Origin: Parcubacteria group bacterium
GTDB taxonomy: Bacteria; Patescibacteriota; Minisyncoccia; Phycocordibacterales; Phycocordibacteraceae
NCBI GenBank assembly: GCA_028286615.1
Contig: JAQBRG010000004.1
Location: 36,480 to 100,479, forward strand
DNA length: 64,000 nt
Direction: 5' to 3'
Shown here: piece after piece, positions 3,422-59,786 of the stretch
How positions within the stretch are numbered: position 1 is the first letter of the stretch
Layout of the letters: the number at the start of each line of letters is the position of its first letter
The notes under the pieces: generated by a model
Told to the model about the DNA's origin: nothing
Database searches by the model: none
What the model saw: the letters and a program-made list of their open reading frames with translations, nothing else
Position numbers and translations under genes: made by a program

Positions 3422-3480
3422 GTGGCGCCCTTTGTTTCAATGAGTCCGGGTTCACTATACGCAGCCACCCAAACGAGTCA

Positions 3481-3510
3481 ATTAAAAGAAAACCGCTCCT
3501 AGTGGAGCGG
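3481..3510 (-). terminator. rho-independent terminator after the ParB-like gene
   Basis: ccgctcc-tagt-ggagcgg stem with a ttttctttt tract on the minus strand. Confidence 0.5.
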
Positions 3511-42086: not shown

Positions 42087-42587
42087 TTAGAACTCAAGCC
42101 TTGTGCCTCGTAGGAGATCGAAACCTTTGCGCAATGCTCGGATTTCATGGTCATCAGCGGGTTTGCCTGCAGATATCGCCTTTTCTATTTCATCATCAGC
42201 AAGCCACTCGAACTCAGAATGGTCGCTGGGGTGTATCTGGATATTTTCTATAGGGTCTTCAAATTGCGCAAAGTAAATGACTTCGATAGAGTGCGAGCCT
42301 TTTATATGATTTGTGTAGGTAAAAACATAAAAAGGATCGCCTACCCTGACGTTCATTCCATTCTCTTCCATGATCTCTCGCTTAAGTCCTTCGACAGGGT
42401 CTTCATCAAATTCGATATGGCCGCCAGGAAGCTCAAGAATGCCTGGCATAAACTTTTTCGTTTCTGCTCTGCGGGGCATGAATACTTTCTCTACACCATC
42501 AAAATTATGGTGGATGAAGGCGCAAGCGGTTATTACTTGCTGTCCGTGAGCTGGAGTTTCGCTATCGTGAGAGATAATGTGTTCCAT
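42087..42587 (-). CDS. NUDIX hydrolase
   Basis: GGHIEFDEDPVEGLKREIMEENG, a Nudix box. Confidence 0.8.
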   Translation of the reverse strand: MEHIISHDSETPAHGQQVITACAFIHHNFDGVEKVFMPRRAETKKFMPGILELPGGHIEFDEDPVEGLKREIMEENGMNVRVGDPFYVFTYTNHIKGSHSIEVIYFAQFEDPIENIQIHPSDHSEFEWLADDEIEKAISAGKPADDHEIRALRKGFDLLRGTRLEF

Positions 42588-45285: not shown

Positions 45286-45377
45286 TTATCCACAAGTATA
45301 CCGGGGTTGGGGATAAAGTGCGAAAGCGAGGTATTTCTTGCTCCATTTGATGCAACCTGTTAATATCCTGTGTATAT

Positions 45378-45515
45378 ATGCCTAAGCGAACATACCAGCC
45401 CAAAAAGAAGAAGCGAGCCCGAACCCACGGATTCCGTGCCCGCCTAGCAACCGCTGCTGGCAGGAAGCTCCTACTTCGCCGTCGCCGTAAGGGACGTTCG
45501 AAGCTAACAGTCTAA
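45378..45515 (+). CDS. rpmH: 50S ribosomal protein L34 (not in the ORF track; 45 aa)
   Basis: [45 protein letters not shown]. Confidence 0.9.
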
Positions 45516-45856
45516 TGATTCCCCGTCGATTGCGCCTTTCCCGGGCGCATTTTGCGTCCATTCCGGGAAAACCAGGAGAAAAACGAGCCGCTAGCCCGCA
45601 TTTCTCTGTATCGGTGTGTAAAAGCGAGGGAAATGGCGGTTCTGCTGCCGTTATCTCTAAAAAGGTTGAGAAGACCTCGGTTGGAAGACATCGCCTGAAA
45701 CGCCGTGTTTTGGCCGTTTTGGCTCCTTTGAGCTCTAAAAACCAGGCAGTTATTGTGTTTGCTCGAGCTGGAAGCCAGAAACTCCCCTACTCCCTACTAA
45801 AAGAGGAGCTTTTCGAGCTTCTAAGTCGCGTTATGGGCGGTTCGCGGTTAAACTAA
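45515..45856 (+). CDS. rnpA: RNase P protein component
   Basis: Basic 113-aa protein immediately after rpmH, with an RNR-like motif. Confidence 0.8.
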   Translation: MIPRRLRLSRAHFASIPGKPGEKRAASPHFSVSVCKSEGNGGSAAVISKKVEKTSVGRHRLKRRVLAVLAPLSSKNQAVIVFARAGSQKLPYSLLKEELFELLSRVMGGSRLN

Positions 45857-45863
45857 AGACCAC

Positions 45864-46595
45864 ATGATCTCTTTCTTCCATACCGTTCTTTACATACCTA
45901 TATATAACCTTCTCATCTTCCTTGTGGACGTTATCCCTGGAGGCGATATTGGCCTCGCTGTTATCGCAGCCACCATCATCGTAAAGGTTGTAATCATGCC
46001 GCTCTCCTTCGCTGCTCTACGCACCTCCCGCGCGGTTAAGGCTATAGAGCCAGAACTCAAGACACTCAAGGAAGAGTACAAGGACGACAAGGAGGGGCTC
46101 GCAAGAGAAACCTTCGCTATCTATAAAAAGTACGGCATCAATCCGTTTGCTGGCATCCTCACTCTTTTCATTCAGTTCCCTATTGTCATCACGCTCTACT
46201 GGGTATTCCGCACCGAATCTCTTCCAGGTGTTGATGCGTCACTTCTCTATTCATTCATTCACGCACCGGACACCGCCTCCCCTCTTTTCCTTGGTCTCAT
46301 TCTTATAACAAGTTCGAGTCTTATTCTTGCAGTACTGGTTGGCATAACTTCATACATTCAAGCAGTGTACGCACTTCCCCTTCCAGCAAAGCCGGAGCCA
46401 GGAGCAAAGCCAAACATGCAGGCAGACATAGGGCGCGCCATGGCACTCCAGATGCGCTACATACTTCCTATTCTCACTGCAGTTATTGCATACGCATCAG
46501 CTGCGCTCGCTCTCTATTTCATAACAAGCAATCTTCTTAGTATCTTCCAGGAATATATTGTTCGTTTGAAGAAACTTCCTACGCCTTCAGTCTAA
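45864..46595 (+). CDS. yidC: YidC/Oxa1-family membrane protein insertase (short form)
   Basis: Five TM segments with a conserved loop; follows rnpA. Confidence 0.8.
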   Translation: MISFFHTVLYIPIYNLLIFLVDVIPGGDIGLAVIAATIIVKVVIMPLSFAALRTSRAVKAIEPELKTLKEEYKDDKEGLARETFAIYKKYGINPFAGILTLFIQFPIVITLYWVFRTESLPGVDASLLYSFIHAPDTASPLFLGLILITSSSLILAVLVGITSYIQAVYALPLPAKPEPGAKPNMQADIGRAMALQMRYILPILTAVIAYASAALALYFITSNLLSIFQEYIVRLKKLPTPSV

Positions 46596-47809
46596 AGGTC
46601 GTACATCCAAAGCGAAGAGTCTGCTTTGTTGGTGAATATAAGCACATCGGACTGCGAGTCGATTGTTAGAGCAACGGCATCAATAGATTCTTTGGCGAGC
46701 TCTGAAGGATCAACAATAAGCGTTGCTACACGAGTATCAAGATCAATACTCCATATTCTGTCGTTAAAGGTACGCGCGCCTTGGTACCACTCGTCTGGAA
46801 GCTTTCCTGTAAGCGCTGTTGGTACACCGCAGTAGATTGCACGGCTGTCGCGACGCCAGACACACTTATCTGCAAGTGTTGAAAGAGGAATTGGTGTAGC
46901 GGTGTGATTCAGAACATCAAGTACTTGCGTGTAGAGTTTGCCGCGATCGGTATAGCTATAAAGTACGTACGCTCCTGAAGGACTTGGCAGTGTCGAGAGT
47001 CCGTTTAGAGGACCAAGTACGCGCGTAAAGGAGCCTGCAGCGTCAACACTGAAGCTGTAGCCTGCCATGTCGCTTGAAGCTTTCGTTGTTGCTAGATAGC
47101 TCGTACCCAAGAAGCCAAGACGAAGTGCTGAAAGCGCAGAAGAGAAAAGAGTGCGTGTGTTGGTGCCATCAAGATTGGAAAGACTTGCAAGAGAGCCAGC
47201 ACTACTTGGAAGAAGTGTAAGAACTGTAGAGGTGCCGCGTACAGATGCTTGAGCAAGGTTCTGTTCTAGGAAGAACCCCCCTTCCCCGTTTGATTGCAGT
47301 GCGTAGGTATCAGTTCGCTCAGAACCGTCAGTTGTACGCTCAAGGAAACGTGCAAAGACACGAGATCCATCGCTTGCCCAAGAAGCTTCTTGAATACCCG
47401 GAAGCGTTTTGTTTGAAAGCCTGGTCTGCACACGCTCATGTGCACGATACGCATATATGTTTCCGCTAGCTCGGTCTATGTAACGCACCTCTACATCTGC
47501 AGGCTTGCTTGGAACAGTGCTGCTGGCTGTCGTGCTGCCAACAACCTCGGGAATATAAATCGCAACCGAACCTTCCGCTACCGGCTTATCCGTTATCTTA
47601 ATAAGATGCGGGGCAACAACCTCCCCTGCTCCATTAATAGCGGTCCCTGAATCTGGTGTTGTAACCGTGGCGTCCCCGCTTGTTCCGAAAGGATTAGCAA
47701 TACTCGGCTCTAGTGTTGCTGCACCATTGGCAAAGAAGAAGAACCAAATACCCACACCGATGCCGATGAGGACGATGATGCTGGCGACGATAATCAGGAT
47801 CCGCTTCAT
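46592..47809 (-). CDS. hypothetical membrane-anchored protein
   Basis: N-terminal TM segment; 405 aa. Confidence 0.45.
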   Translation of the reverse strand: MKRILIIVASIIVLIGIGVGIWFFFFANGAATLEPSIANPFGTSGDATVTTPDSGTAINGAGEVVAPHLIKITDKPVAEGSVAIYIPEVVGSTTASSTVPSKPADVEVRYIDRASGNIYAYRAHERVQTRLSNKTLPGIQEASWASDGSRVFARFLERTTDGSERTDTYALQSNGEGGFFLEQNLAQASVRGTSTVLTLLPSSAGSLASLSNLDGTNTRTLFSSALSALRLGFLGTSYLATTKASSDMAGYSFSVDAAGSFTRVLGPLNGLSTLPSPSGAYVLYSYTDRGKLYTQVLDVLNHTATPIPLSTLADKCVWRRDSRAIYCGVPTALTGKLPDEWYQGARTFNDRIWSIDLDTRVATLIVDPSELAKESIDAVALTIDSQSDVLIFTNKADSSLWMYDL

Positions 47810-47812
47810 AGT

Positions 47813-48724
47813 TTATATTTTGAGAGCTGGGTTGGCGCACACAGGCAGCTTCGAAAGAGTTGCGTAGCTGTCCGCCGGAGTATTTGCCGCGGGACTTCCT
47901 ACAGGAGAACAGGCGCGAGACGAATACTGGATATTGGAAACCTTGGCTTTCTTGCCGTTGTATTCAGAATCGCAGGCCGCTTGAGTTGGAAGTGTGCCTG
48001 TTGAAATCATTACACATGCTTCCTGGCTACGATCTCCTACCTCATAACTCTTGTACATGATGCCGTAGTTGTAAGAGGTCGCCGTCGCTGCCGGAGCAGC
48101 AGGCGTATCTTGTTTGACAGTCGCAGGTGTTGTTTTGTTAACGCCGCAGCAAATCCAACCCGACTGTCCTTTAGGTGCCGGTGCGCAGCAAGAATCAGAA
48201 ACCTTACCCCACCCTTCTCCAGGCAAAGAGCTGCAAGTATTATTTTTTAACTGAGCAACCTTTGCATAATCTACGCACGCGGTTGCGGCGCTTGCTCCAG
48301 CGGGCGAGGTCGTTGTATCAGTAGGAGTATTTTGTGGAAGCTGAAGCTGGTCAATTCCTCCAATCTTAAGCTTCAAGATATCAGGGTTAATTATCGAGAA
48401 AACAATAACCGGAGAAAGGATAAGAAGAAGTCCTATGAGAGAGTCACGAATAAGACCTCGAGCCTGGGTTATTTTCTCTGAATTATCTCCTGCAGTCATC
48501 CACGTAACACCTGCTCGCATAATCTGGAGAACAGCGAGTGTTGCTGCAATTCCAATCAATACCTTATAGAGGTTGTTGAGAAATGCCGGCATCGTATCTA
48601 CATTCCCCGCTCCCTGAAGGAAGGGTGCGTTTGTCAGAGACTTAAAGCCATTCTCTTGTGCAAACGCCACCGCCGGAAGCGCGAAGGCACTTAGTATCAG
48701 GAATGCGTAGAGATGTGATTTCAT
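47813..48724 (-). CDS. TrbC/VirB2-like pilin domain protein with Cys-rich C-terminal extension
   Basis: Signal peptide, then two hydrophobic helices (YKVLIGIAATLAVLQIMRAG ... LIGLLLILSPVIVFSII) as in VirB2/TrbC pilins. An unusual Cys-rich tail of about 190 aa follows. Confidence 0.4.
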   Translation of the reverse strand: MKSHLYAFLILSAFALPAVAFAQENGFKSLTNAPFLQGAGNVDTMPAFLNNLYKVLIGIAATLAVLQIMRAGVTWMTAGDNSEKITQARGLIRDSLIGLLLILSPVIVFSIINPDILKLKIGGIDQLQLPQNTPTDTTTSPAGASAATACVDYAKVAQLKNNTCSSLPGEGWGKVSDSCCAPAPKGQSGWICCGVNKTTPATVKQDTPAAPAATATSYNYGIMYKSYEVGDRSQEACVMISTGTLPTQAACDSEYNGKKAKVSNIQYSSRACSPVGSPAANTPADSYATLSKLPVCANPALKI

Positions 48725-48726
48725 AG

Positions 48727-49707
48727 TTATAGACCAAATATGCCAAGGCCCTTAGACGCACCAAACTTAACAGAGAATCCACCCTGTGCCGTTTGATGGA
48801 AGTCCGGATGCTTTGCCGAGACAGAAACCGCAGAAGTGCCCGCTCCATTTCCGGTTGCACGTACGGTTAGATCTTTGTCTTCTCCGCTCATGCTCCCCCC
48901 AACCGTCCAAGCAATATTTGGAGGAGCTCCGAAGAAGTACGGAACAGCGCGGAAAGTTGTTTCTGTGTCAGCCATAGAATAGGTACCTGAAAGCGCCGCT
49001 CCAAACAAAGGACCCAAGAGAGGATCGTTCCTATATATACGTACGACAGGGTCTGCGGGAGCCACTACAACAGACTGCTCAGCCACAATACTGCTGTCTA
49101 CAGTGCTTACCGTTACCGTAACAACCGTATCTCTGTATCGGACGGGAGCCGTCGCACTTAGAACAGACTTCCCGATGCCGGAAGAAGACTGGAGGATTTG
49201 GTCTCCTAGTCTCCACATGTAGACGAGGCTGCTAGGAGAAAGACGCACGTTTGCATCGTTACGGATATCTGGAATCGCAACTATACGTACTCGTCCTTCG
49301 GAGGCAACCAAACTCGCTCCTTTATAAAACGGGGGGACTGTTGAGGAAGGCTCAAGTATAAGAGATACGTCAGCAGGACGGATAGTTACTTGCTTGGCAT
49401 GACTCTGTCCGTCAGGAGTAATAACCGTAACTAGAATCGTCGTGCGTGTACCTGCGGCCCCAACGCGCACTGCTGCTGCTTGGGTGCCGCTCCCCTTCTG
49501 CACAACAGATCCATTAGCCGATATCGTTACGCTGCTTGAAGGCAGGTCTAGAAGTGTGCTGCCGGGGGTAACGGTGATGGTATCGAAAGGTTTTGGATAC
49601 TGCGGACTAATGCTGACGGTGAGCGGGTCTGCTCCAATTTCCTGTGCATGAATAGGGAGTGCGCCAAAGATAAGTAGTGCGAGAACGAGGAGCGAGAGGC
49701 GCTGCAT
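48727..49707 (-). CDS. secreted hypothetical protein
   Basis: Signal peptide; 326 aa. Confidence 0.45.
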   Translation of the reverse strand: MQRLSLLVLALLIFGALPIHAQEIGADPLTVSISPQYPKPFDTITVTPGSTLLDLPSSSVTISANGSVVQKGSGTQAAAVRVGAAGTRTTILVTVITPDGQSHAKQVTIRPADVSLILEPSSTVPPFYKGASLVASEGRVRIVAIPDIRNDANVRLSPSSLVYMWRLGDQILQSSSGIGKSVLSATAPVRYRDTVVTVTVSTVDSSIVAEQSVVVAPADPVVRIYRNDPLLGPLFGAALSGTYSMADTETTFRAVPYFFGAPPNIAWTVGGSMSGEDKDLTVRATGNGAGTSAVSVSAKHPDFHQTAQGGFSVKFGASKGLGIFGL

Positions 49708-49760: not shown

Positions 49761-50240
49761 CTAAGATTCTTCCTCAGAAGTTTCCGAAGGCCTTCTCATC
49801 TGCTGTGCTTGGCGAGCAATCCTACCCGCCTCCATCGCATTGCTTTTTGCTAAGAGTCTTTGTGCCATTCGGGCTGCAGCTCGCGCTTTTATGGGATCCA
49901 TCTCTGCCCCCTTACCCTTTCTATCCTCGCTCCTGCTTTGGGCTATGAGCGCGACGACACCGAGAGTTATCGCAGGAAGCGCATCAATAACAGGAACCAG
50001 TTCGGTTATAACTGACGCCATGCTTATAAGTGCTTTTTTAGCCGCGTTCTGTTTGAAAATGCTCTCACCCAAAAGAGCGAACCAAAGTGCAAATACGATA
50101 GTTGCCAATATAGTAACCAGAAACGTTACTAAAGAACCAATAACGGTAAGAGTAAGTAAAAACTGGATAGCGTCAAAAAGAATCGCGGTACCGATCATGA
50201 ACCCTGCAGCAGTTCCTCCAATTCGGTATTTCTTTTTCAT
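49761..50240 (-). CDS. membrane protein with charged C-terminal tail
   Basis: Three TM segments. Confidence 0.4.
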   Translation of the reverse strand: MKKKYRIGGTAAGFMIGTAILFDAIQFLLTLTVIGSLVTFLVTILATIVFALWFALLGESIFKQNAAKKALISMASVITELVPVIDALPAITLGVVALIAQSRSEDRKGKGAEMDPIKARAAARMAQRLLAKSNAMEAGRIARQAQQMRRPSETSEEES

Positions 50241-50246
50241 GCCAAG

Positions 50247-52067
50247 CTATACGCCCGCAGACTCCTGTCGTTGTTTTTCTTGTTTAATGGCGAGTAGCTG
50301 CGAAGGGTCTGAGGTTATGATCTGATCCTCGGTGTATGACGCAACGATCTTGATAGCCACATGCTTAAGACCCGCAAAGAAAAGTCCCTCCCCCACTCCA
50401 GACTCAAGGAGCAAGAACTTCTCCTCGTCGGTTAGGTTGAATGTTTCCTGCAGAACATTAATAGTTGTCGGAGATTGCTTAAGAAGAAGCTGCATCGAAG
50501 AGTTTGTAAGAATCGGTTTGCCGTATGGACTACGCAAGAAGTCCTCAACGTCCTGAGTTATGGTTGCGAGTCCGAGGTAGTACTTACGTCCGCGCTTAGC
50601 AAGACTGTAGAGGAATGACGCAGTGTCTTCTGCTTTCATCATCCACCACGCCTCGTCAATGATCATAAGGCGCTTCTTGAGTTCGTGACGGACTTCGTTC
50701 CAGATGAAGTGCATGATGATATACATCGCTACAGGCTTGAGCTCGTCTTCCATGTCGCGCACTGAGAACACAACAAACTGTTTCTTAATATCAACGTTTG
50801 TTGGCTGGTTAAGGAACCCAGACCAAGTACCGTGCGTGTATTTTGAGAGCCTAGTTACTAGGGATTCTGAGCCCTCCATACCTGAAAGGACATTCTCAAA
50901 GTCTGAAAGAAGAGGAGGCTCTACACCTGTGAAGTCGTTGTCGCCGGTTATGTCTTTAAGTGCGTACGTCTCTGTTACTGCGCGATCTACAATGGCGTCC
51001 TCCTCTGGAGAAAGACCCCCAAGCATGATGCGGAAGAGTCCCACGAGGTTAATGATGTTTGAACGGAGAATGTCAGCCGGCTCCTCGTCTTCTTTAACAG
51101 GAGGCAGGTCAAACGGATTGATATGGTGTTCGCTTGAAAGAGAAATGTTGAAGGTACGTCCGCCTGCTGCTTCAGCGAGTTGGGTGTATTCGTCTTCAGG
51201 GTCTATAACAATAACGTCGGTATCGAACATGAGGGAGCGAAGAATCTCGAGCTTAACAGCATAAGACTTTCCCGAACCAGATTTAGCAAACACAACGGAG
51301 TTGTAGTTCTCAAGCGAGAAGCGATCGAAGAGAATGAGTGAAGAGTTGTGGCGGTTAATGCCGTAGAGAATGCCATGGTCGCTCGTGAGGTCGAAAGATA
51401 CGAATGGGAAGATAGATGAAAGCGGAGACGAGTTCATTTTGCTGTTAACAGCAAGTTCGTCGAGCGCAAGAGGAAGTGTTGAACGGAATCCTTGTTCTTG
51501 CTGGAAGAGTGCGGGCTTGGTGTATACAAGCTTCGCGTCGAGAATACCTCGTATCTCCCCTTCCACCTTGTCGAGTATCTCCTTAGAGTCTCCGTATATG
51601 GTTATGTACAGACCAACTTCGAAGAGTCTTTCCTGTGCTTGCTGGAGCTGGTCACGAAGGTTCTCAAGATCTTGGTATGCAGTATCAAGCATCGGGTCAC
51701 GCACAAGCCCCTTCTCTTCTCGTGTTTGTATCTGGCTTTGAATTTCGGCAACTTTCTTCTGGAAGCCACGAAGTGCGGGGCCTGTTTCAAGCGGATGAAT
51801 GAAGATGGCAACATCGAATACCTTGTCGAGGTTAATTATTGGCGTAAACCAACCATCAGCAAGGAAGCGCGGGTATGAAATGGTGTAGAAAGTACGGGAA
51901 AACTTCTCCCCGAGCTCTATCTCTTTAGATCCAATCTTAAGAGCCGCAGGAGCTATGGCGTCAGCAAGCTGAAGCTCCCCTTCCGCGTATATATCTCGAG
52001 GAAGTACAGCAGCCACTCTTGGCTCTGCTTCATCTTTTTTCTTACCGAGGAAATCAAGGAGTGCCAT
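50247..52067 (-). CDS. VirB4/TrbE-like T4SS ATPase, C-terminal ATPase portion
   Basis: Walker A VFAKSGSGKSY, Walker B MIIDEAWWMM, GRKYYLGLATITQD motif C. Starts 1 codon after an in-frame TAA that ends the upstream fragment. Confidence 0.65.
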   Translation of the reverse strand: MALLDFLGKKKDEAEPRVAAVLPRDIYAEGELQLADAIAPAALKIGSKEIELGEKFSRTFYTISYPRFLADGWFTPIINLDKVFDVAIFIHPLETGPALRGFQKKVAEIQSQIQTREEKGLVRDPMLDTAYQDLENLRDQLQQAQERLFEVGLYITIYGDSKEILDKVEGEIRGILDAKLVYTKPALFQQEQGFRSTLPLALDELAVNSKMNSSPLSSIFPFVSFDLTSDHGILYGINRHNSSLILFDRFSLENYNSVVFAKSGSGKSYAVKLEILRSLMFDTDVIVIDPEDEYTQLAEAAGGRTFNISLSSEHHINPFDLPPVKEDEEPADILRSNIINLVGLFRIMLGGLSPEEDAIVDRAVTETYALKDITGDNDFTGVEPPLLSDFENVLSGMEGSESLVTRLSKYTHGTWSGFLNQPTNVDIKKQFVVFSVRDMEDELKPVAMYIIMHFIWNEVRHELKKRLMIIDEAWWMMKAEDTASFLYSLAKRGRKYYLGLATITQDVEDFLRSPYGKPILTNSSMQLLLKQSPTTINVLQETFNLTDEEKFLLLESGVGEGLFFAGLKHVAIKIVASYTEDQIITSDPSQLLAIKQEKQRQESAGV

Positions 52068-52070
52068 ATC

Positions 52071-52703
52071 TTAGGAATTTGTTAAAGGAATAGGAGTTTC
52101 TACATCTCCCAGATTGAACGAATGGTACAAAAGTTCGATTATCTCTTCAGTACCAAGCGGAACTGCACGTACTCCTGCCGAAGCGAGACCTCCAGCGGCT
52201 AGTGCCATACGTTGCTCGAGCTGCACGCGGTGTTCGTTAAATGAGTCCTCCCCAGGTGTTTCTGAAGTGCTCTTCCTTCCAATGAAAGGAATATTACCCG
52301 CAACTTCGTTCGCTATTGCGGGAGCGTATGGGATAACGAGATAGAAAATCTTCGTCATGATGTCAGTAGTTTCAAGAAAGCTCTTGATGAACTGCATGTA
52401 TTCGCGAAGCTGTAGACGCATAAGATCAGAGGTCTGAAACGCCATGCGCTCCTGCAAGAGTGCAAGATACGGACGAATATCCATGCGACGTGAATGGGCA
52501 ACGATTTCAACAGAGAAATCGAGCGTGTTAAGGAAGTTCTGGAACCCGCCAACAATGGCTCGCTGCTCGTCTTCAGACTTAAGCGCGAAGTTAACGGAAG
52601 AACACATAAGAATGCCTCTATACCCGTCGTCTTTAAGAATAACTACGCCATTGCGTACTTCTTTAACCGGCACGAATGCTTGTGTTGCTTTAGGTGCAGC
52701 CAT
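52071..52703 (-). CDS. VirB4-like N-terminal domain fragment
   Basis: VPVKEVRNGVVILKDDGYRGILMCSSVNFALKSEDEQRAIVGGFQNFLNTL matches the conserved N-terminal block of VirB4/TrbE. Same reading frame as 50247..52067. Confidence 0.5.
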   Translation of the reverse strand: MAAPKATQAFVPVKEVRNGVVILKDDGYRGILMCSSVNFALKSEDEQRAIVGGFQNFLNTLDFSVEIVAHSRRMDIRPYLALLQERMAFQTSDLMRLQLREYMQFIKSFLETTDIMTKIFYLVIPYAPAIANEVAGNIPFIGRKSTSETPGEDSFNEHRVQLEQRMALAAGGLASAGVRAVPLGTEEIIELLYHSFNLGDVETPIPLTNS

Positions 52704-52704
52704 A

Positions 52705-53121
52705 TTACTCAGTTGGGGTTTGTTGATCCTTAATGTCTAGAGACCAAGCTAATTCCTCAAGCTTCCCGCGGGTTAGGCCAAGCTTTTGGCGAACCGGTTC
52801 AGCAGCAGGAGTTGCTACAGGCATTGAAGATTTGTTTGATTGCATTTCTTTTTTCCAAAGGTAGAGGCGACCTCCTATGTAGTATTTAAAGCCTGCCTCA
52901 AGAATGTCCGCAAAGGTCTTGTTGTTAATCTTGTAGAACGCGAGAGCACCAGCAAGAGCTGCTACGGGAATTGCGAGAATAATACCAAGAAGACGTGGAA
53001 GATAGAGGACAAGAACGGCACAAAGCCCTGCTCCGCCAGCTATGTAAATGAATTGCTTCAACGTAAACGGGCCGAATATTTTGTCTTCAACCTCGATAAA
53101 TTGAGGAACTTGGTACTCCAT
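52705..53121 (-). CDS. PrgI/VirB3-like small membrane protein
   Basis: PQFIEVEDKIFGPFTLKQFIYIAG followed by TM helices, immediately upstream of the VirB4-like gene. Confidence 0.45.
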   Translation of the reverse strand: MEYQVPQFIEVEDKIFGPFTLKQFIYIAGGAGLCAVLVLYLPRLLGIILAIPVAALAGALAFYKINNKTFADILEAGFKYYIGGRLYLWKKEMQSNKSSMPVATPAAEPVRQKLGLTRGKLEELAWSLDIKDQQTPTE

Positions 53122-53166
53122 TGCTGATAAGTATACCAGCTACTTATTACTTCTATTATGAATTCC

Positions 53167-54066
53167 CTACTCAACAGGCTCTCTGTAAGGATCAGTGCCG
53201 TAGTTTTTCATATCAGGAGCCTTCCTGAATGGAGAAGCGGAAGGCACTGGAGTATGAGGTAGATTTAAAGGAATCGGCACGTATTCTTCTTGGAACGCAC
53301 GTTTTGGAGCCTCCGGTACTTCTGGTGTTGTGTTTGCTAGTGGATTGATACCATTTTTAAGCATCTCCATGTCTTTTGCCATGGTGCGCATTTCCCTGTG
53401 TTCAGGTTGCGACACGGAGACGTCAGGTGGCTGTGTAGTAGGAGTCTCTGCTTTTGGAATTGGCGCGGACCACGTTACCGGTACTTCGACAGGCTTGCCT
53501 TCAGGCACGAGCTCTGAAGACCCAGGAAGTGTTACTGGCAAAGCCGGAGCAGGCTGAATAATTGGTGCTAGCGCCTGATGCGGCGCTGAATTTATAACGT
53601 TAATTGGCGAAGGAATTGATGACGCAGGCACAGGAAGTGCGACGGGAGCCGGTGCGACTGGTAGCGATGGGGGCGGAACAAGCGCAGGGACTGGCAAAGG
53701 ATCAGGTTTTTGAGGCTGTGTCTGAATAGGTTGTGGAGGCTGCGGCTCACGAACACCGTCTCTTTCGGCTTTCCTTAATGGCGTAAAGACTTCTCGGTTC
53801 ACGTCGGCGACAATTGCTGTAACTGTAGCAGGGTCCAACTGCATCGCATTGAGAGACTCAACAAAGGTTTCAGGAGTCTCCTGTCCTAAAAGCATTAGCA
53901 ATAGCTCACGTTCCAGTGCCCCGCCCTGGTCAATGTGGAGAGAGTACCTCTCCATAATGGCGTGTGCCGTATCAGGCAGATCGTTAAGAATGAAGTCGCG
54001 CACAGGGAACGGCACCTTAGCTATAAGGCTTGAGATGCTTTGTTCTAGAGCCAGATTCTCATCCAT
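53167..54066 (-). CDS. proline-rich hypothetical protein
   Basis: Long proline-rich low-complexity middle region. Confidence 0.4.
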   Translation of the reverse strand: MDENLALEQSISSLIAKVPFPVRDFILNDLPDTAHAIMERYSLHIDQGGALERELLLMLLGQETPETFVESLNAMQLDPATVTAIVADVNREVFTPLRKAERDGVREPQPPQPIQTQPQKPDPLPVPALVPPPSLPVAPAPVALPVPASSIPSPINVINSAPHQALAPIIQPAPALPVTLPGSSELVPEGKPVEVPVTWSAPIPKAETPTTQPPDVSVSQPEHREMRTMAKDMEMLKNGINPLANTTPEVPEAPKRAFQEEYVPIPLNLPHTPVPSASPFRKAPDMKNYGTDPYREPVE

Positions 54067-54071
54067 ACTTT

Positions 54072-56534
54072 CTAAGTGTGTGGAGCAGCACCATGAGCGT
54101 CACCTCCTGCTGGTGCGCCGGCAGGAGCGTGCGCCGGCGCTGCTGGCGCGTCTTCCTCATCATCCTTTTCAGCTGCCTTCTTGATTTTTGCCAGAGCTTG
54201 ATCAAGATCGCTACCCTTGCCCTTACGAATATTCGCCGCTGCTTCATGGTCGGCATGGTTTCCAACCGATCCAGGAAGGTATACATTTCCATGCAGGCCT
54301 TCAAGGTATGTATCAGTCTTCTGTTGCTCAGCTCGATTGCTCCATGCCTTTAACCTGACTTCAAGCTCTTTCTGTTGTGCTGCCAAACGCTTACCATCAG
54401 CGTCTCCTTCTATAATCTCGTCACCGATCTTTACGTCAGCACCATTCAAACGATCGTACTCAGTTGTTCGTCGCTTGAGTTCCTCACGTGCACGCTCAAG
54501 ACCCGCCTTATCGTTTGCAAGACGTGCTTTCTGCACCTTTACACGTTGCTCCTCAATAAGGTTTAGCTGATCGGCCAAATGCTCCGCGCGCCGCTTCTTA
54601 ACTTCAATTAGCTCCTCCTCTACCTCGGTTGCAACGCCTCGCTGCTTCTCGCTTGGTTTGAGGGTCTTCTTTAGGAAGTCCTCTCGGTCCTTAACTGCCT
54701 TCTCCTCAATACCATGGAAACCGTGTGCCGCAGTCTTGTTTGCTTGGCCAAAATCCAACTTAACTTTTCCATTTTTTCCAGCAGCCGTTGCCAGATTTCG
54801 TGCGCTATAGCTCGCAGTAGCCCCCTTGTTTGCGAAATTGTATGCAAGTCTTGCCTGTCCCGGATGATTCTGTGCCCACTCAGAAGTTCTAATGCGCTGC
54901 GCCACTGAATTTGATGCTGCTCCAAGAGTTCGTCTCCCAAGGAATCCATAGGTACCAAGAGCGAGACCTCCTGCTGTTTTCGTTGCATAACCTGCCCCTG
55001 CAGCCCCCAGCTTGGTTGCAGCCATTAAAGACGCAACCATGAATCCAATAACAATAAGAAATATCAATACAACCTGCATATTTCCTGCCACACCATTTCC
55101 TTGCAGAAGAGCATCTGCAAGCGAGGCTTTTCCTTGCATGAGCCCCTCAGTCAACTTGAGACTGATGAAAATGAGAAGGAGATATACAGGAGCAAAGAAT
55201 GACTGAGAAATTAGGGCCTTCCACCAGCTTTTCGCCATTTCTGAAAAGGCGGGTATTGCCATACCCGCGAATCCAATAGGAGATGTGACCATCAAGAGAG
55301 ACAGAACAACCACACGAATGACGAGCATAATCGCGCCCGCCAGGAGTACAACGGCTGTAATAGTTACGAAAATACTCAGACATAGGAGAAAGATTGTATA
55401 TGAGTAGGGCTGCTGGCTTATATTTTTCCACTCATCTCCGAAAGCCGAGCCAATAGTTGAAAGACTAAAAATCTTATCCATGCCCGCGGCATGCATTACG
55501 GCTCCCGCAATACCAACTTGAGAGCAGGCCTCGGGACTTTGGCCCGCAATACAATTCTGTCCAGCTTGTGCGGTAAACACCGACGCAAAGCCATTTGCCA
55601 CATCTATAACAGCCTGTGATGCAAACAAGCTAAAGTTAAGAAGAACAGCAAAAATAATGAGGCCGGGGAGCGCTTTCTTTGCGGTATACCCCTCAACAGC
55701 ACCTGTATTCAAGATGGTTGCAATGCCCATAAATATGAAACCAAAGAGCAGCACAATGTTTCCAATGTCTCGAAGCACTCCCCATGCAATAAGCGTACCC
55801 GCTGAACTTCCGAAGTACGTTCCAAATTCAAACACGGTTCGTATAACTACCCAGTTAAATACAGCTCCTGAGATAGCTAGAAGTATGCCCGAGATACCCA
55901 GAACAATAAGTGCCAGGAAAGAAAAGATGACGCCTGGAATGTTTAAGACACACTGAACAAGATTTGTTATGGAACAACTCTTAAACGCGGCAGCTTGAGT
56001 CTCCGCGCCAGCCAGGTCTTTATCAGCCGCCACCCCACTTGAAGTTTCAACCAAAGGCGTGCCTCCCGTTGCCTGACTTCTGCCGATTGTTTTTCCGGTC
56101 GCGTCATAGAATTGATAACTACTGCTCTCACCAGATACAGCGAGACGACTCTTGTCTGAAGCTACGATATTACATGTGCCTTTGCGAAGAGTTCCCTGAC
56201 TGTCAATCTCAGTTGCTGCGACACAGGTAACACCATAATTCTTGCCACCTGCCGTCAATGTTTTATTGCAGTTCTTTTGAAACGACTGGCTTAGAAGTTC
56301 TGTTGCGGGTGATGTCTTAGTCTCACCGAAACATCCAGACACTAAACTGTCGATATCAGAATTTTGAAGACTAGCAATGATCGCTGTTGTCGACTGGGCG
56401 TGGGCTGCCTGAGGAATTAAAGAGACTGTTCCAAAGAACGAAAATACTACGATAACGCACATGCCAGTAAAGGCACTTTTAAAAAGTGCTTTCGCGTCCA
56501 CTCGTTCGTGTTGAGTACGTCGGAGTGTCTGCAT
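54072..56534 (-). CDS. VirB6/TrbL-like polytopic membrane protein with C-terminal coiled-coil/charged domain
   Basis: Signal peptide, large extracytoplasmic region, then many TM helices, then a charged coiled-coil tail; 820 aa. Confidence 0.45.
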   Translation of the reverse strand: MQTLRRTQHERVDAKALFKSAFTGMCVIVVFSFFGTVSLIPQAAHAQSTTAIIASLQNSDIDSLVSGCFGETKTSPATELLSQSFQKNCNKTLTAGGKNYGVTCVAATEIDSQGTLRKGTCNIVASDKSRLAVSGESSSYQFYDATGKTIGRSQATGGTPLVETSSGVAADKDLAGAETQAAAFKSCSITNLVQCVLNIPGVIFSFLALIVLGISGILLAISGAVFNWVVIRTVFEFGTYFGSSAGTLIAWGVLRDIGNIVLLFGFIFMGIATILNTGAVEGYTAKKALPGLIIFAVLLNFSLFASQAVIDVANGFASVFTAQAGQNCIAGQSPEACSQVGIAGAVMHAAGMDKIFSLSTIGSAFGDEWKNISQQPYSYTIFLLCLSIFVTITAVVLLAGAIMLVIRVVVLSLLMVTSPIGFAGMAIPAFSEMAKSWWKALISQSFFAPVYLLLIFISLKLTEGLMQGKASLADALLQGNGVAGNMQVVLIFLIVIGFMVASLMAATKLGAAGAGYATKTAGGLALGTYGFLGRRTLGAASNSVAQRIRTSEWAQNHPGQARLAYNFANKGATASYSARNLATAAGKNGKVKLDFGQANKTAAHGFHGIEEKAVKDREDFLKKTLKPSEKQRGVATEVEEELIEVKKRRAEHLADQLNLIEEQRVKVQKARLANDKAGLERAREELKRRTTEYDRLNGADVKIGDEIIEGDADGKRLAAQQKELEVRLKAWSNRAEQQKTDTYLEGLHGNVYLPGSVGNHADHEAAANIRKGKGSDLDQALAKIKKAAEKDDEEDAPAAPAHAPAGAPAGGDAHGAAPHT

Positions 56535-56538
56535 ATAG

Positions 56539-57939
56539 CTAGTTTATAACGCAGCTTACCGAAAGCTGGCTCAGCTGAGATAGCAACGAATCAGTACCCG
56601 CTGATGCTTGTGATTCTGACTCTGCAACTTCAGTAGGTGTTGGGAGAATGTCTGAGTTCGGCCCGTCAAAACCCTGGAAGTCTTCAGACAATTTGTTTAG
56701 ATCAGCAAGCTTGCCACCAGTTGCAATTGCGCTTTTCGCTTGAGATTGAAGCTTGCCAAGTTCGGCCGTGGCATTAGCTGCTTTAACTAGTGCGGCAGAA
56801 GCGCTATTGAGTGCGGGCTGCACAATGGTACTTATCGCCTGCGTGTTGTTTCGACTAGAACATGCACTAAGTGCCTGCTGCCCCGCCGCTTGTATACGCT
56901 GCCAGTTACTTTGGTAATTACTTACCTGACCCAATTCTTCAGTAATTGTTTGAAGGAATGCCTGAGAAAGACTGGCACTCTGCGTATTCGATGCGTTTGT
57001 AAGGTTGTCTGCGTATGAACTGCCTCCTCCTGTAGAAGGTTTGGATAACCCTGCAATGCCACCTTTGCTAAAGGCTTCATTTAGCAGATTGAGTATAGGA
57101 GCACTCGCAAACTCACTGACCTCATCAGCACTGACGGTCTTGTCTATACCCGCACCGAGAGTATGTACAAGGGTGTCGTGAAGTACTGATCCGTTAATTA
57201 TGATTGGCGAATTGGGACACTCCTTGGATGAACCTAAGGAGACATCTCCTGAAGATCCACACGTCCCGTGGTATGAACCGATTCCCTGTCCCCAGTTAAT
57301 TTCTGTAAGCCTGTTCCCCTCCGCGTTTCCTACGCTGCCTTCAAACGCTTGCTGGGTAAGAAGTGTAGAACCATAAGGATTATTCTGTGGATTCATAAAG
57401 CTCGAGAATAGAGCATCAAGGCCTCCTTTGGAGAAGTCTCCGTTTGTGAATGCGGCCGGGTCTGAACTGACTTGATCAAGGGTAAAAGGATTTTGGTTAA
57501 AGACACCGCCTGCACCTGTAGAGCGGTAACGATACTCTCGGAGGTTTTGGCTTAAGTCGTCTCTCCATGGAGATTTAACACTGTTACTCGATTCAAGCTC
57601 TTTCAAAAACGCCTCAGCTTGCGCGTCCCCAACAGAAAGCATGGTCTTGTTAATGTCAGTTACAAAAGCAGGAGAACCATCAAAACCAGAGTTCACAAAG
57701 TTAATCATGCTCTTGTTAAGAGACTGAAGAGCAGAAATACTTTGAATCCAGGCAAGACGGTCGCTTGTAAGCTCTTTAAAAATACCTTTATTTTCAAGAG
57801 CCGCACTCAGTGCATTCTTTACAAGGTTAACTGGGTCAAGAACTGTCTGATACGCCTCTGTTCGTGCGGGCATGGCTGTTAACCCTATACCTAATGCAAG
57901 GGTGAAGACCAAACAAGTTTTTAAGAAGGAGATTTTCAT
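56539..57939 (-). CDS. secreted hypothetical protein
   Basis: Signal peptide; 466 aa. Confidence 0.45.
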   Translation of the reverse strand: MKISFLKTCLVFTLALGIGLTAMPARTEAYQTVLDPVNLVKNALSAALENKGIFKELTSDRLAWIQSISALQSLNKSMINFVNSGFDGSPAFVTDINKTMLSVGDAQAEAFLKELESSNSVKSPWRDDLSQNLREYRYRSTGAGGVFNQNPFTLDQVSSDPAAFTNGDFSKGGLDALFSSFMNPQNNPYGSTLLTQQAFEGSVGNAEGNRLTEINWGQGIGSYHGTCGSSGDVSLGSSKECPNSPIIINGSVLHDTLVHTLGAGIDKTVSADEVSEFASAPILNLLNEAFSKGGIAGLSKPSTGGGSSYADNLTNASNTQSASLSQAFLQTITEELGQVSNYQSNWQRIQAAGQQALSACSSRNNTQAISTIVQPALNSASAALVKAANATAELGKLQSQAKSAIATGGKLADLNKLSEDFQGFDGPNSDILPTPTEVAESESQASAGTDSLLSQLSQLSVSCVIN

Positions 57940-58970
57940 GGTTGTTCATTAGCGACGGCGTCTGCTGCACGTTTAGCAACTTGAACAATAGATGCGCCAG
58001 AAGTTCCGTCTGGGATGTTTGCGCCAACTGCATCAAATACTCCGTTAAGGTTTGCGAATGCGCGTCCAAGATTCGCTCCCCTCTCTTGGTACATTCCAAT
58101 TCCGAAGACTGCTAGAACAGGATCAGTTTTTGTTGCAGCCATGTCAGCCGTTGTCTCACTCATATGCATAAGCGCATTCGCAATTGAAAGATGGGCGTTG
58201 CGTGCTTCGGAAGGAACAGAAAGTTTCATAGCTGCTCGTGCGATGGCTGCGTATGATTTGCTAATTGCAAAAAGTTTCGTGATGGCAGACGAGTCATTCT
58301 TGCTAACCGCGTCTGAGAAATATTCGAGATCCGTTTTGTCCGTAGGGACTGTGTATGTTGCAAAGACCTGCTCAAGATTTGCCGCATAGGTTGCAAGCGC
58401 ATCTGCGCCGCTTCCTCCTGCAACGATGTCCGAAGTGCTATACGTATCCGTTTCAATTTCTTCTGCTTTAAAACTCTGAAGTCCTTGTTCTACGAATGCG
58501 CTTAACTCGGCGGGAGTTGGAGGTGTTGGGCCACGAGTCTTTAGATATTGCGTAAGGAGGCTACGAGCGAATCTGTCTGTAACAGTCGTTGGACCCGCAT
58601 TTACGCCAGGAACGGGGGTATTAACAAGTGAAGTGGAGGTCGCGGTTAATACTTTTGGTTTAACCAGCCCTTGGGAAACAGCGTCTCCATCCTTAGTTCC
58701 CTTCCGCACAGATTCAGGATTGTTTGGATCTGTTCCGTACAACGCTTCTTGCCAATCTGGAAGCTGGTCTCCATCAGTATCTTTTGCTGCGTAACTCTTA
58801 AGGAGTTCTGCAGAAGATTCTGCATCAGCTACATTTGTCTTTCCAAGAAATGGAATTGGTCCCGATGTTGCGTATGCTCCGCCAACAAGGACAACCGCAA
58901 TTACTGATGCGATGATTATGCTAACGGTGCGAGGAGAAGAACCAGCCATATGTTTCCATAATAATAGCAC
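57936..58970 (-). CDS. membrane-anchored hypothetical protein
   Basis: N-terminal TM segment; 344 aa. Confidence 0.45.
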   Translation of the reverse strand: MLLLWKHMAGSSPRTVSIIIASVIAVVLVGGAYATSGPIPFLGKTNVADAESSAELLKSYAAKDTDGDQLPDWQEALYGTDPNNPESVRKGTKDGDAVSQGLVKPKVLTATSTSLVNTPVPGVNAGPTTVTDRFARSLLTQYLKTRGPTPPTPAELSAFVEQGLQSFKAEEIETDTYSTSDIVAGGSGADALATYAANLEQVFATYTVPTDKTDLEYFSDAVSKNDSSAITKLFAISKSYAAIARAAMKLSVPSEARNAHLSIANALMHMSETTADMAATKTDPVLAVFGIGMYQERGANLGRAFANLNGVFDAVGANIPDGTSGASIVQVAKRAADAVANEQP

Positions 58971-59012: not shown

Positions 59013-59786
59013 TTAGATTTTCTTTGCAAGCGCGCTCCAAGCAGCAAGAGAAAGATCTTCAGCACGAGCTTTTGGCATTAGCCCAACTTCTTCGAACGCT
59101 AGATATATTTTCTCGAGTGGAGCGAGGATTTCGAGGTTACGCGCGAGGAGTTTTCGCTTATGAGCAAACCCAGCCTTAAGTACTGCAAAAAAGCGTACTT
59201 CCTCGGCAGAGGACTCAAAAAGATCCCCAGAGATGTTTTGAATTGAAAGAACTGCAGAATCTACGTTAGGTGCGGGTATAAAAGCTCCGCAAGGGACAGT
59301 AAAGGCGTATTTGGGAGTCCCATACGCCTTAACTGAGAGTGAAAGAAGGCTTTCTTTCTCGCTTCGGGCAATACGCACCGCCACTTCCTTCTGCACCAGG
59401 AGCGTCATGGAGGTTGGTTTATGGCTGGCAGTCAGGAACTGGCGAATAATCTCTCCAGTTATGTAGTACGGGATGTTTGCTACTAAAACGTAGGGTTTTG
59501 CTAGTGATGTCGGATCAAAAGACCGCACGTCTTGCTGTATAAGTACCAGTCTCCCCTCTTTAATTTCCCCAGCAAAGGTCTCCTCTAGCTGAGGTATCAG
59601 CTCGTTATCTGCCTCAATGGCGATAACTTTCGCTGCTTTCTTGAGCAAGGCACGCGTTAACATTCCGGTTCCAGGGCCTATTTCAAGGACCGTAGCGTTT
59701 TCTGGGAGTTTTGCAGCCTCAACAATGCGCTCCCCTGTCTGGGCGTGCATGAGAAAGTTCTGTCCGAGAGATTTCTTTGCGTACAT
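59013..59786 (-). CDS. rsmA: 16S rRNA (adenine1518/1519-N6)-dimethyltransferase
   Basis: QNFL ... VLEIGPGTGMLT ... NIPYYIT. Confidence 0.9.
   Translation of the reverse strand: MYAKKSLGQNFLMHAQTGERIVEAAKLPENATVLEIGPGTGMLTRALLKKAAKVIAIEADNELIPQLEETFAGEIKEGRLVLIQQDVRSFDPTSLAKPYVLVANIPYYITGEIIRQFLTASHKPTSMTLLVQKEVAVRIARSEKESLLSLSVKAYGTPKYAFTVPCGAFIPAPNVDSAVLSIQNISGDLFESSAEEVRFFAVLKAGFAHKRKLLARNLEILAPLEKIYLAFEEVGLMPKARAEDLSLAAWSALAKKI

What the first reader, a model, noticed from the sequence alone, without database searches (positions are those of the whole stretch)
50247..52703. VirB4-like T4SS ATPase interrupted by a single in-frame TAA between its N-terminal domain and ATPase core
ORF 52071-52703 carries the conserved VirB4 N-terminal block (VPVKEVRNGVVILKDDGY...ALKSEDEQRAIVGGFQNFLNTL). 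ORF 50247-52067 carries Walker A, Walker B and motif C of the same family. They are in the same reading frame, separated only by TAA (52071-52073) and one codon before the next ATG. Three explanations fit: a genuinely split two-polypeptide VirB4, a recent nonsense mutation making a pseudogene, or a sequencing error. Other long genes in the window (polA, PBP1A, pcrA, dnaA) read through without such interruptions, which gives no support to TAA reassignment.
Basis: seen in the sequence. Interest (0 to 1): 0.5.

Follow-up and report, generated by a model that had tools for sequence, protein, structure and literature searches.

The report
Conserved two-gene VirB4 secretion ATPase
The "interrupted" secretion-system ATPase is not broken: it is the normal two-gene form (a small TrsD-like piece followed by the VirB4 ATPase) found in every related ultra-small Patescibacteria genome examined, and it has already been described in the literature.

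Summary
On the minus strand a 210-aa ORF (52703..52071) ends in TAA. One codon (GAT) follows, and then the ATG of a 606-aa VirB4 ATPase ORF (52067..50247), in the same frame.

It is neither a pseudogene nor a sequencing error. In 79 of 79 related Paceibacteria/Parcubacteria genomes with downstream DNA, the N gene ends in a stop and the C gene starts at the same conserved ATG (MALLDFL...). The spacer varies from 1 to 142 nt. It is in frame in 40 genomes and out of frame in 39. The frame changes at least 24 times on a 71-leaf tree, so the in-frame arrangement here is incidental.

Of the 150 best cluster representatives of the N protein (34-73% identity), 149 are short, stand-alone-sized proteins. 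One (797 aa) is a colinear fusion.

The pair matches TrsD/TraD plus TrsE/TraE of staphylococcal pGO1/pSK41 plasmids, cut at the same profile position. A 2025 paper already reports TrsD homologues next to VirB4 as the most abundant T4SS component in Patescibacteria.

The split lies inside the VirB4 N-terminal domain, not at its border with the ATPase core.

Verdict: ordinary and already known.

The parts
52071..52703 (-). N gene: 210-aa stand-alone protein matching the first ~180-200 positions of VirB4. It is a TrsD/TraD-like remote homologue. No TM segment predicted.
   Evidence: ORF. NCBIfam partial hits to VirB4_plasma positions 103-233 (E 2.9e-7) and CD1110 positions 4-105 (E 3.3e-4). 5475 homologues found, and the best 120 are all 203-219 aa. 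Family-level link to TrsD: 41 of 45 diverse relatives hit NF041427, and hhalign of A2 against S. aureus TraD gives E 1.1e-5. Foldseek top 14 hits are all TrwK/VirB4 chains, from a weak model (pLDDT 59.7).
52068..52073 (-). Junction: stop codon TAA (52073-52071) plus a 3-nt spacer GAT (52070-52068) before the ATG of the C gene.
   Evidence: In 79 relatives the spacer is 3 nt (32), 1 nt (14), 2 nt (14), or other lengths up to 142 nt.
50247..52067 (-). C gene: 606-aa VirB4 ATPase lacking the first ~180 VirB4 positions (TrsE/TraE-like). Walker A at 51264-51287, Walker B at 50646-50669. Its conserved N-terminus is MALLDFL.
   Evidence: NCBIfam CD1110 VirB4-like family, 376 bits against a cut-off of 325. 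Pfam P-loop_TraG E 4.4e-26. PDB 4ag5 VirB4 C-terminal domain E 6e-43, and TrwK E 1e-6. Motifs located.
52705..53121 (-). prgI (VirB3-like) membrane protein gene, 138 aa. Its stop is 1 nt before the ATG of the N gene. Probably the first gene of the prgI-N-C-159aa unit.
   Evidence: Pfam PrgI E 8.2e-11. TM-like segments at residues 21-66.
53130..53135 (-). TATACT, a -10-like hexamer ending 8 nt upstream of the prgI ATG. Candidate promoter for a leaderless or very short-leader transcript.
   Evidence: Six of 47 genes have such a hexamer 6-10 nt upstream of the ATG, against 0.37 expected. Function is inferred, not shown.
49761..50240 (-). 159-aa membrane protein gene starting 6 nt after the stop of the C gene. 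Probably in the same operon. Function unknown.
   Evidence: ORF; TM-like segments; no significant Pfam family.
54072..56534 (-). 820-aa polytopic membrane protein. VirB6/PrgH-like candidate by position and topology only.
   Evidence: about 7-8 hydrophobic segments. No Pfam or NCBIfam hit, so the assignment is an inference from context.
47813..48724 (-). 303-aa VirB2-like T4SS pilin with a long Cys-rich C-terminal extension.
   Evidence: Pfam T4SS_pilin E 8.1e-7, above its cut-off; TrbC E 1.4e-4.

Best explanation
[quoted passage not shown] It lies next to the replication origin.

An ancient gene fission, or equivalently retention of a TrsD + TrsE type arrangement, leaves the first ~200 residues of the VirB4 N-terminal domain as a separate 210-aa protein (TrsD/TraD-like). 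The rest of the N-terminal domain and the ATPase domain form a 606-aa protein (TrsE/TraE-like).

Both are made as separate polypeptides from one operon, prgI(VirB3-like) - N - C - 159-aa membrane protein. This genome has almost no Shine-Dalgarno sites and the gene spacers are 1, 3 and 6 nt. The C gene is therefore most probably translated by termination-reinitiation coupling at TAAgatATG (inferred). The two proteins are then expected to reassemble non-covalently into a VirB4-like unit, with the small piece sitting at the membrane-proximal side near PrgI/VirB3 (inferred from the position of the N-terminal domain in the R388 T4SS structures; not tested here).

That the TAA is in frame with the next ATG is an accident of a 3-nt spacer.
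For: Shown:
- In 79 of 79 related genomes with downstream DNA, the N gene ends in a stop (TAA, TAG or TGA) and the C gene starts at the same conserved ATG. Spacers are 1-142 nt, 40 in frame and 39 out of frame.
- The frame state changes at least 24 times on a 71-leaf tree, against 30.5 +/- 2 for shuffled labels. The six closest relatives have spacers of 9, 3, 5, 3, 142 and 1 nt.
- Both halves are under strong constraint: 76% mean column identity and many invariant residues in the N protein; C protein 74-89% identity.
- 5475 homologues of the N protein were found, and the best 120 are all 203-219 aa. Among the best 150 representatives at the 50% identity level, all are short (115-443 aa) except one 797-aa colinear fusion.
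- The pieces are complementary and colinear with whole VirB4.
- The same cut point occurs in the staphylococcal traD (227 aa) / traE (670 aa) pair: TraE residue 28 and window C residue 30 both align to CD1110 profile position 183. A Pontibacillus plasmid has the same 274 aa + 621 aa pair, with hhalign E 5.7e-22 for the small protein.
- Context: prgI, a VirB2-like pilin, dnaA, dnaN, rpmH, rnpA, yidC and ksgA are nearby.
- SD-like motifs precede only 6 of 47 long ORFs.

Literature: PMC12102498 reports TrsD (remote homologue of the VirB4 N-terminal part) as the most abundant T4SS component in Patescibacteria, mostly adjacent to virB4. It reports the system near dnaA/dnaN/ksgA, and the TrsD homologue as essential in Ca. 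Southlakia epibionticum ML1.
Against: - No direct evidence here that the two proteins bind each other, or that the C gene is translated by coupling. Both are inferences.
- The window's own N ORF does not hit the NCBIfam TrsD model at E <= 0.01. The link to TrsD rests on family-level and transitive evidence.
- The AlphaFold model of the N protein is poor (pLDDT 59.7), so the structural match to TrwK (TM 0.36-0.43) is weak.
- In-frame junctions are somewhat more frequent than one third (40 of 79), because the exact 3-nt spacer is favoured. This is unexplained.
- Four relatives have 55-142 nt spacers, where coupling cannot be the mechanism.
Confidence: 0.93

Rival explanations
1. Recent nonsense mutation: a formerly single VirB4 gene was inactivated, and the locus is a pseudogene in decay.
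For: Same frame, with only TAA plus one codon between the two ORFs. A fused 797-aa relative exists.
Against: The stop is present in 79 of 79 related genomes at 62-89% protein identity, with different stop codons, spacers and frames. Both ORFs keep full length and invariant motifs. The C gene has a conserved ATG and N-terminus of its own. The same split occurs in functional staphylococcal conjugative plasmids.
Confidence: 0.01
2. Sequencing or assembly error created a false stop codon.
For: None specific. The only exact match (P0001, 100% identical) probably comes from the same assembly, so it is not independent.
Against: Independent assemblies from many studies all show a stop at the homologous place and the same downstream ATG.
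Confidence: 0.01
3. Programmed stop-codon readthrough: besides the two separate proteins, a minor full-length N-C fusion is made by reading through TAA in lineages where the genes are in frame.
For: In-frame junctions are 40 of 79 rather than about 26. The exact 3-nt spacer is the commonest single class (32 of 79). A natural fusion shows that a covalent link is tolerated.
Against: Half of the relatives are out of frame or far apart. The frame flips almost as often as random labels on the tree. TAA is the commonest ordinary stop in this window (26 of 47 ORFs). No conserved downstream context was found beyond the coding sequence of the C gene.
Confidence: 0.03
4. The small protein is not a complementing fragment of VirB4 but an independent accessory factor (a diverged paralogue of the VirB4 N-terminus) with its own role, and the 606-aa ATPase works without it.
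For: [quoted passage not shown] TrsD homologues in Gracilibacteria are not linked to virB4 (PMC12102498). Archaeal CedB-type VirB4 relatives work with short N-termini (my own knowledge; CedB hit).
Against: The C protein lacks exactly the profile positions that the N protein supplies. The fused relative joins them colinearly with a 12-residue linker. The two genes are adjacent in all 79 genomes. The TrsD homologue is reported essential together with the other T4SS genes in S. epibionticum.
Confidence: 0.08

Closest known systems
TrsD/TraD + TrsE/TraE of staphylococcal conjugative plasmids pGO1/pSK41 (MPF-FATA class, pGO1 subclass)
   Same: A small protein (227 aa) homologous to the VirB4 N-terminal part sits directly upstream of a VirB4 ATPase (670 aa) that begins at the same profile position as here (CD1110 position 183 at residue 28, against residue 30 here). 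Both ATPases start MA(F/L)L...KKK. Family-level homology of the small proteins: hhalign E 1.1e-5, and 41 of 45 relatives hit NF041427.
   Different: Sequence similarity is very low (16% identity in the hhalign alignment). The window ORF does not reach the TrsD model at E 0.01. The staphylococcal pair is plasmid-borne, has a 20-nt spacer with a clear GGGAG SD, and serves conjugation. The pair here is chromosomal, next to oriC, without an SD, and sits in a system with VirB2-like pilins and a VirB6-like protein.
TrsD homologue-VirB4 pairs of the Patescibacteria T4SS (Quinonero-Coronel et al. 2025, PMC12102498; Ca. Southlakia epibionticum ML1, Wang et al. 2023)
   Same: Same lineage, same gene pair, same neighbours (PrgI/VirB3, VirB2-like pilin, VirB6-like) and the same location near dnaA/dnaN/ksgA/rnpA/rpmH. 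This locus is one more instance of that system.
   Different: No biological difference was found. The paper does not mention a split, fusion or gene length for VirB4/TrsD (term search of its text). This analysis adds the shared cut point, the spacer and frame statistics, and the rare fused relative.
Full-length VirB4 (TrwK of R388; CD1110-family and PrgJ-type VirB4 of Firmicutes)
   Same: N plus C together cover the whole VirB4 profile colinearly. Walker A/B and the C-terminal domain are conserved (4ag5 E 6e-43).
   Different: Full-length VirB4 is one chain of about 750-820 aa. Here there are two chains, cut inside the N-terminal domain.
VirB3-VirB4 fusion proteins (e.g. CagE/TrbE-type)
   Same: They show that the VirB3 / VirB4-N / VirB4-C module is prone to gene fusion and fission without loss of function.
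   Different: The direction is opposite (fusion of VirB3 to VirB4). No such fusion is present here, and none was found in Patescibacteria.

Membership tests
VirB4 family ATPase (C gene) | Score above the curated cut-off of a VirB4 family model | tested here: met
   NCBIfam NF045971 CD1110 VirB4-like: 376.3 bits against a cut-off of 325, E 3e-112.
VirB4 family ATPase (C gene) | Walker A and Walker B motifs, and a C-terminal domain like solved VirB4 structures | tested here: met
   AKSGSGKS at 51264-51287 and LMIIDEAW at 50646-50669. PDB 4ag5 E 6e-43; TrwK E 1e-6.
VirB4 family ATPase (whole protein in one chain) | N-terminal ~180 profile positions present in the same polypeptide | tested here: not met
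   The C ORF starts at about CD1110 profile position 183. Positions 4-105 are on the separate N ORF.
VirB4 N-terminal region (N gene) | Sequence or fold similarity to the start of VirB4 | tested here: met
   VirB4_plasma positions 103-233 E 2.9e-7; CD1110 positions 4-105 E 3.3e-4. 45 of 45 relatives hit VirB4_plasma, and 21 of 45 hit TIGR00929. Foldseek top 14 hits are all TrwK/VirB4, E 8.6e-4 to 2e-2, from a low-confidence model.
TrsD/TraD family (NCBIfam NF041427) | Score at or above the curated cut-off (200 bits) | tested here: not met
   The window ORF has no hit at E <= 0.01. S. aureus TraD scores 227.6 bits. The window protein is therefore a remote homologue, not a member by NCBI's criterion.
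TrsD/TraD family (homology in the broad sense, as used in PMC12102498) | Detectable homology to TrsD at family level | tested here: met
   41 of 45 diverse relatives hit NF041427 at E <= 0.01 (best 1.4e-11). hhalign of A2 against S. aureus TraD: E 1.1e-5, probability 82%, 171 columns. With the shallow alignment A1 the result was only E 0.089.
TrsD + TrsE gene pair | Small gene immediately upstream of the VirB4 gene on the same strand, with the same cut point | tested here: met
   Window: 3-nt spacer. S. aureus: traD at 3300-3983 and traE at 4004-6016 of L081. Both ATPases begin at CD1110 position 183 near residue 30.
Patescibacteria chromosomal T4SS | Cluster with PrgI/VirB3, a VirB2-like pilin and VirB4, located near dnaA/dnaN/ksgA/rnpA/rpmH | tested here: met
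   PrgI and T4SS_pilin. dnaN, dnaA, yidC and ksgA. rpmH at 45378-45515 and an rnpA-like ORF at 45515-45856. Description of the system in PMC12102498.
Patescibacteria chromosomal T4SS | Requirement for epibiotic growth | not testable with these tools
   Reported for Ca. S. epibionticum ML1 only.
Pseudogene by nonsense mutation | Stop not shared by relatives; relaxed constraint on the pieces | tested here: not met
   The stop is shared by 79 of 79 relatives, and both pieces are conserved.
Programmed readthrough / recoding site | In-frame relation of the two ORFs conserved across relatives | tested here: not met
   40 in frame against 39 out of frame. At least 24 frame changes on 71 leaves.

The most novel reading that the evidence does not exclude
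The excess of exact 3-nt, in-frame TAA-NNN-ATG junctions (32 of 79 relatives, and this window) may not be neutral. In those lineages a low level of TAA readthrough could make a covalently joined full-length VirB4 alongside the two separate chains. That would give the motor two assembly states. Alternatively, the 3-nt spacing could be selected for efficient termination-reinitiation in a genome without Shine-Dalgarno sites.
Probability: 0.03. Interest if true: 0.45.

Novelty: already known. Interest (0 to 1): 0.12.

Why it matters
It matters mainly for annotation. Automated pipelines and readers can mistake this pair for a disrupted VirB4 pseudogene, or leave the 210-aa gene as 'hypothetical protein', as the public records do. 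It should be read as an intact TrsD-like + VirB4 pair of the near-origin T4SS, a system that is essential for epibiotic growth in the one Patescibacterium tested.

One modest addition to the published picture comes from this analysis. The cut is at the same profile position in Patescibacteria, staphylococcal pGO1/pSK41 plasmids and a Pontibacillus plasmid. A rare colinear fusion also exists. Together these argue that TrsD is the detached first subdomain of VirB4 rather than an unrelated accessory protein.

Tried and rejected
- Pfam on the N ORF gave nothing, even at E 10. The precomputed PF26593 label on all homologues is not in the local Pfam copy, so its name could not be checked.
- Profile search of the shallow N-family alignment (A1) against PDB sequences found no hit at E <= 1.
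- hhalign of the shallow alignment A1 against S. aureus TraD was not significant (E 0.089). It became significant only with the diverse alignment A2.
- The AlphaFold2 model of the N protein built from 22 close homologues is poor (pLDDT 59.7). The Foldseek result is used only as weak support.
- My first junction script mis-assigned L008, L017, L046 and L062. tblastn had aligned across the stop, or an upstream TTG was chosen as the start. After correction all four are ordinary splits.
- The text of Guglielmini et al. 2014 (PMC4027160) does not contain the word TrsD. The statement on TrsD-VirB4 homology is therefore cited from PMC12102498.
- A Shine-Dalgarno-driven start of the C gene was rejected: the motif is on the wrong strand and the genome is SD-poor.
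- TAA reassignment was rejected.
Full report
**Observation.** On the minus strand, the ORF listing gives a 210-aa ORF at 52703..52071 and a 606-aa ORF at 52067..50247. The sequence at the junction reads ...TTA ACA AAT TCC TAA GAT ATG GCA CTC CTT....

The N ORF matches the start of VirB4 family profiles: VirB4_plasma positions 103-233, E 2.9e-7, and CD1110 family positions 4-105 of 752, E 3.3e-4. The C ORF matches CD1110 positions 183-733 with 376 bits against a cut-off of 325. It also carries the Pfam P-loop_TraG, AAA_10 and DUF87 domains from residue 252 on. Walker A (AKSGSGKS, 51264-51287) and Walker B (LMIIDEAW, 50646-50669) are present.

Two details of the finding are wrong:
- The 'AAGGAG' proposed as a ribosome-binding site was read from the + strand. 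On the coding strand it is CTCCTT, downstream of the ATG.
- The break is not at the border between the N-terminal domain and the ATPase core. The C ORF has about 250 residues before its P-loop domain, and its residues 128-560 align with TrwK/VirB4 residues 300-741. The cut is inside the VirB4 N-terminal domain.

**Is it a broken gene?** No.
- The N ORF has 5475 homologues at E <= 1e-3 in the 5.8-billion protein collection. The best 120 (67-75% identity; one is 100% identical and probably the same assembly) are all 203-219 aa long, from Parcubacteria/Paceibacterota/Patescibacteria metagenome genomes. They are strongly conserved, with 76% mean column identity, and their C-terminal tails vary in length.
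- A scan of one genome per species gave 80 loci. In all 79 that have downstream DNA, the N gene ends in a stop (TAA about 64, TAG 12, TGA 3) and the C gene begins at the same ATG with the conserved N-terminus MALLDFL.
- The spacer is 3 nt in 32 loci, 1 nt in 14 and 2 nt in 14. In the rest it is 4, 5, 6, 8, 9, 12, 14, 19, 33, 55, 92, 102 or 142 nt. The two genes are in frame in 40 loci and out of frame in 39.
- On a UPGMA tree of the concatenated proteins, the frame state needs at least 24 changes on 71 leaves, against 30.5 +/- 2 for shuffled labels. The six closest relatives of the window (84% identity) have spacers of 9, 3, 5, 3, 142 and 1 nt.

The split is therefore ancient and universal in this lineage, while the in-frame relation is incidental. 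This refutes a recent nonsense mutation, a sequencing error, and any requirement for readthrough. TAA is also the commonest ordinary stop among 47 long ORFs of the window.

**How far does the split reach?** An exhaustive HMMER search of 1.84 billion cluster representatives found 2259 relatives of the N protein. Of the best 150 (34-73% identity), 149 are short, stand-alone-sized proteins of 115-443 aa. The shortest are probably fragments. Four of the longer ones were read: three carry low-complexity tails and the fourth is the fusion described next. P0249 is 797 aa.

P0249 is a colinear fusion. N residues 7-202 match its residues 8-213, and C residues 30-599 match its residues 226-796. The canonical VirB4 model TIGR00929 covers it from residue 17 to 750 in one stretch. 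This shows that the two window proteins are the two parts of one VirB4 chain, cut at a linker.

**What is it in known terms?**
- A tblastn search of plasmids with the C protein hit staphylococcal conjugative plasmids from query residue 3 onward. In S. aureus plasmid CP049497, the gene in front of the 670-aa ATPase is annotated traD (227 aa). It scores 227.6 bits on NCBIfam NF041427, 'TrsD/TraD family conjugative transfer protein'.
- The staphylococcal ATPase aligns to CD1110 position 183 at its residue 28. The window's C protein does so at residue 30. Both begin MA(F/L)L...KKK.
- The best plasmid hit, from Pontibacillus, has the same pair: 274 aa + 621 aa. Its small protein matches the N family at hhalign E 5.7e-22.
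- The window's N ORF itself does not reach the TrsD model at E 0.01. However, 41 of 45 diverse members of its family do (best 1.4e-11). The diverse family profile aligns with S. aureus TraD over 171 columns at E 1.1e-5.
- A low-confidence AlphaFold model (pLDDT 59.7) nevertheless finds only TrwK/VirB4 chains as its top 14 PDB matches, followed by a sharp drop to noise.

**Literature.** Quinonero-Coronel et al. 2025 (PMC12102498) searched Patescibacteria with T4SS profiles. [quoted passage not shown] They found 2,272 homologues, 1,664 of them associated with VirB4. The system lies near dnaA, dnaN, ksgA, rnpA and rpmH in Paceibacteria. The TrsD homologue of Ca. Southlakia epibionticum ML1 is listed as essential.

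The window fits this description exactly:
- dnaN 42587-43687
- dnaA 43924-45285
- a DnaA box TTATCCACA at 45286-45294
- rpmH 45378-45515
- an rnpA-like ORF 45515-45856
- yidC 45864-46595
- the T4SS cluster on the minus strand from about 46.6 to 59 kb, with a VirB2-like pilin, the N and C genes, prgI and an 820-aa polytopic membrane protein
- ksgA 59013-59786
- pcrA/uvrD 59792-61738

The locus is one more instance of a described system.

**Mechanism.** Shown: two conserved genes, always adjacent, that are complementary and colinear with VirB4.

Inferred:
- The genes are co-transcribed with prgI. A TATACT hexamer ends 8 nt upstream of the prgI ATG, and such hexamers precede six genes in the window against 0.37 expected.
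- SD-like motifs precede only 6 of 47 ORFs, and the spacers in prgI-N-C-159aa are 1, 3 and 6 nt. The C gene is therefore most probably translated by termination-reinitiation.
- The two proteins are expected to reassemble into a VirB4-like protomer, with the small piece near PrgI/VirB3. This rests on the position of the VirB4 N-terminal domain in the R388 structures that came up.

None of these three inferences was tested. Four relatives with 55-142 nt spacers must start the C gene independently.

**Rivals.**
- Pseudogene and sequencing error are refuted by the comparative data.
- Readthrough is not required. It cannot be excluded as a minor event where the frame allows, and the mild excess of in-frame junctions (40 of 79) and of the exact 3-nt spacer is unexplained.
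- The idea that the small protein is an independent accessory factor rather than a complementing fragment is not excluded. It is disfavoured by the exact complementarity, the fused relative and the invariable adjacency.

**Verdict.** The 'interruption' is the normal, conserved and already published TrsD-like + VirB4 two-gene architecture of the Patescibacteria T4SS. Interest is low. Its main value is to prevent the locus being annotated as a disrupted gene.

Noticed in passing
window, 47 long ORFs; e.g. 53130-53135, upstream of 49707, 45285, 27967, 19464 and 7807 (all minus strand): Shine-Dalgarno-like motifs precede only 6 of 47 long ORFs. TATACT (-10-like) hexamers end 6-10 nt upstream of the ATG of six genes (prgI, the 326-aa T4SS-cluster gene, dnaA and three others), against 0.37 expected. 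This suggests leaderless or very short-leader mRNAs are common in this genome.
   Followed up: partly
window 45286-45864: Origin-type region next to the T4SS cluster: a perfect DnaA box TTATCCACA at 45286-45294 directly upstream of dnaA, then rpmH (45378-45515), an rnpA-like ORF (45515-45856) and yidC (45864-46595).
   Followed up: partly
P0249 (797 aa, from the representative search): The only fused N-C VirB4 among the 150 best representatives. A 12-residue linker replaces the last 8 residues of N and the first 29 of C, including the otherwise conserved MALLDFL start. Its genomic context could not be checked, so a frameshift or assembly artefact is not excluded.
   Followed up: partly
L006, L011, L013, L039 (spacers between the N and C genes): Four relatives have 55-142 nt between the two genes. 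Three of these spacers start with similar ATGAGTATG / ATGAAG strings right after the stop, and L013 has a GGGGCTTTTTT terminator-like run. Small inserted ORFs or elements were not examined.
   Followed up: no
L001-L080 junctions: The exact 3-nt spacer (stop-NNN-ATG, with NNN mostly pyrimidine-rich such as tct, cct or cgt) is the commonest class (32 of 79). The 1-nt spacers are almost always 't'. A preferred geometry for reinitiation is possible but untested.
   Followed up: no
window 47813-48724 (-): The VirB2-like T4SS pilin (Pfam T4SS_pilin/TrbC over residues about 3-105) carries a ~200-residue C-terminal extension rich in Cys, Ala, Pro and Thr. This is much longer than typical VirB2 pilins.
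   Followed up: no
window 54072-56534 (-) and 53167-54066 (-): An 820-aa polytopic membrane protein has a charged coiled-coil-like C-terminal third and an Ala/Pro-rich tail. A 299-aa Pro-rich protein sits between it and prgI. Neither has a Pfam or NCBIfam hit. The first is a VirB6/PrgH candidate by position only.
   Followed up: partly
window 56539-58970 (-), 46592-47809 (-), 48727-49707 (-): Four further genes of the cluster (466, 344, 405 and 326 aa) each have a single N-terminal hydrophobic segment and no family assignment, apart from a weak TSP3 repeat in the 344-aa protein. They are probably secreted or anchored T4SS-associated proteins.
   Followed up: no
one search hit table: All homologues of the N protein carry a precomputed Pfam label PF26593, which the local Pfam-A copy does not return for the window protein even at E 10. 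The family's name could not be established here.
   Followed up: partly
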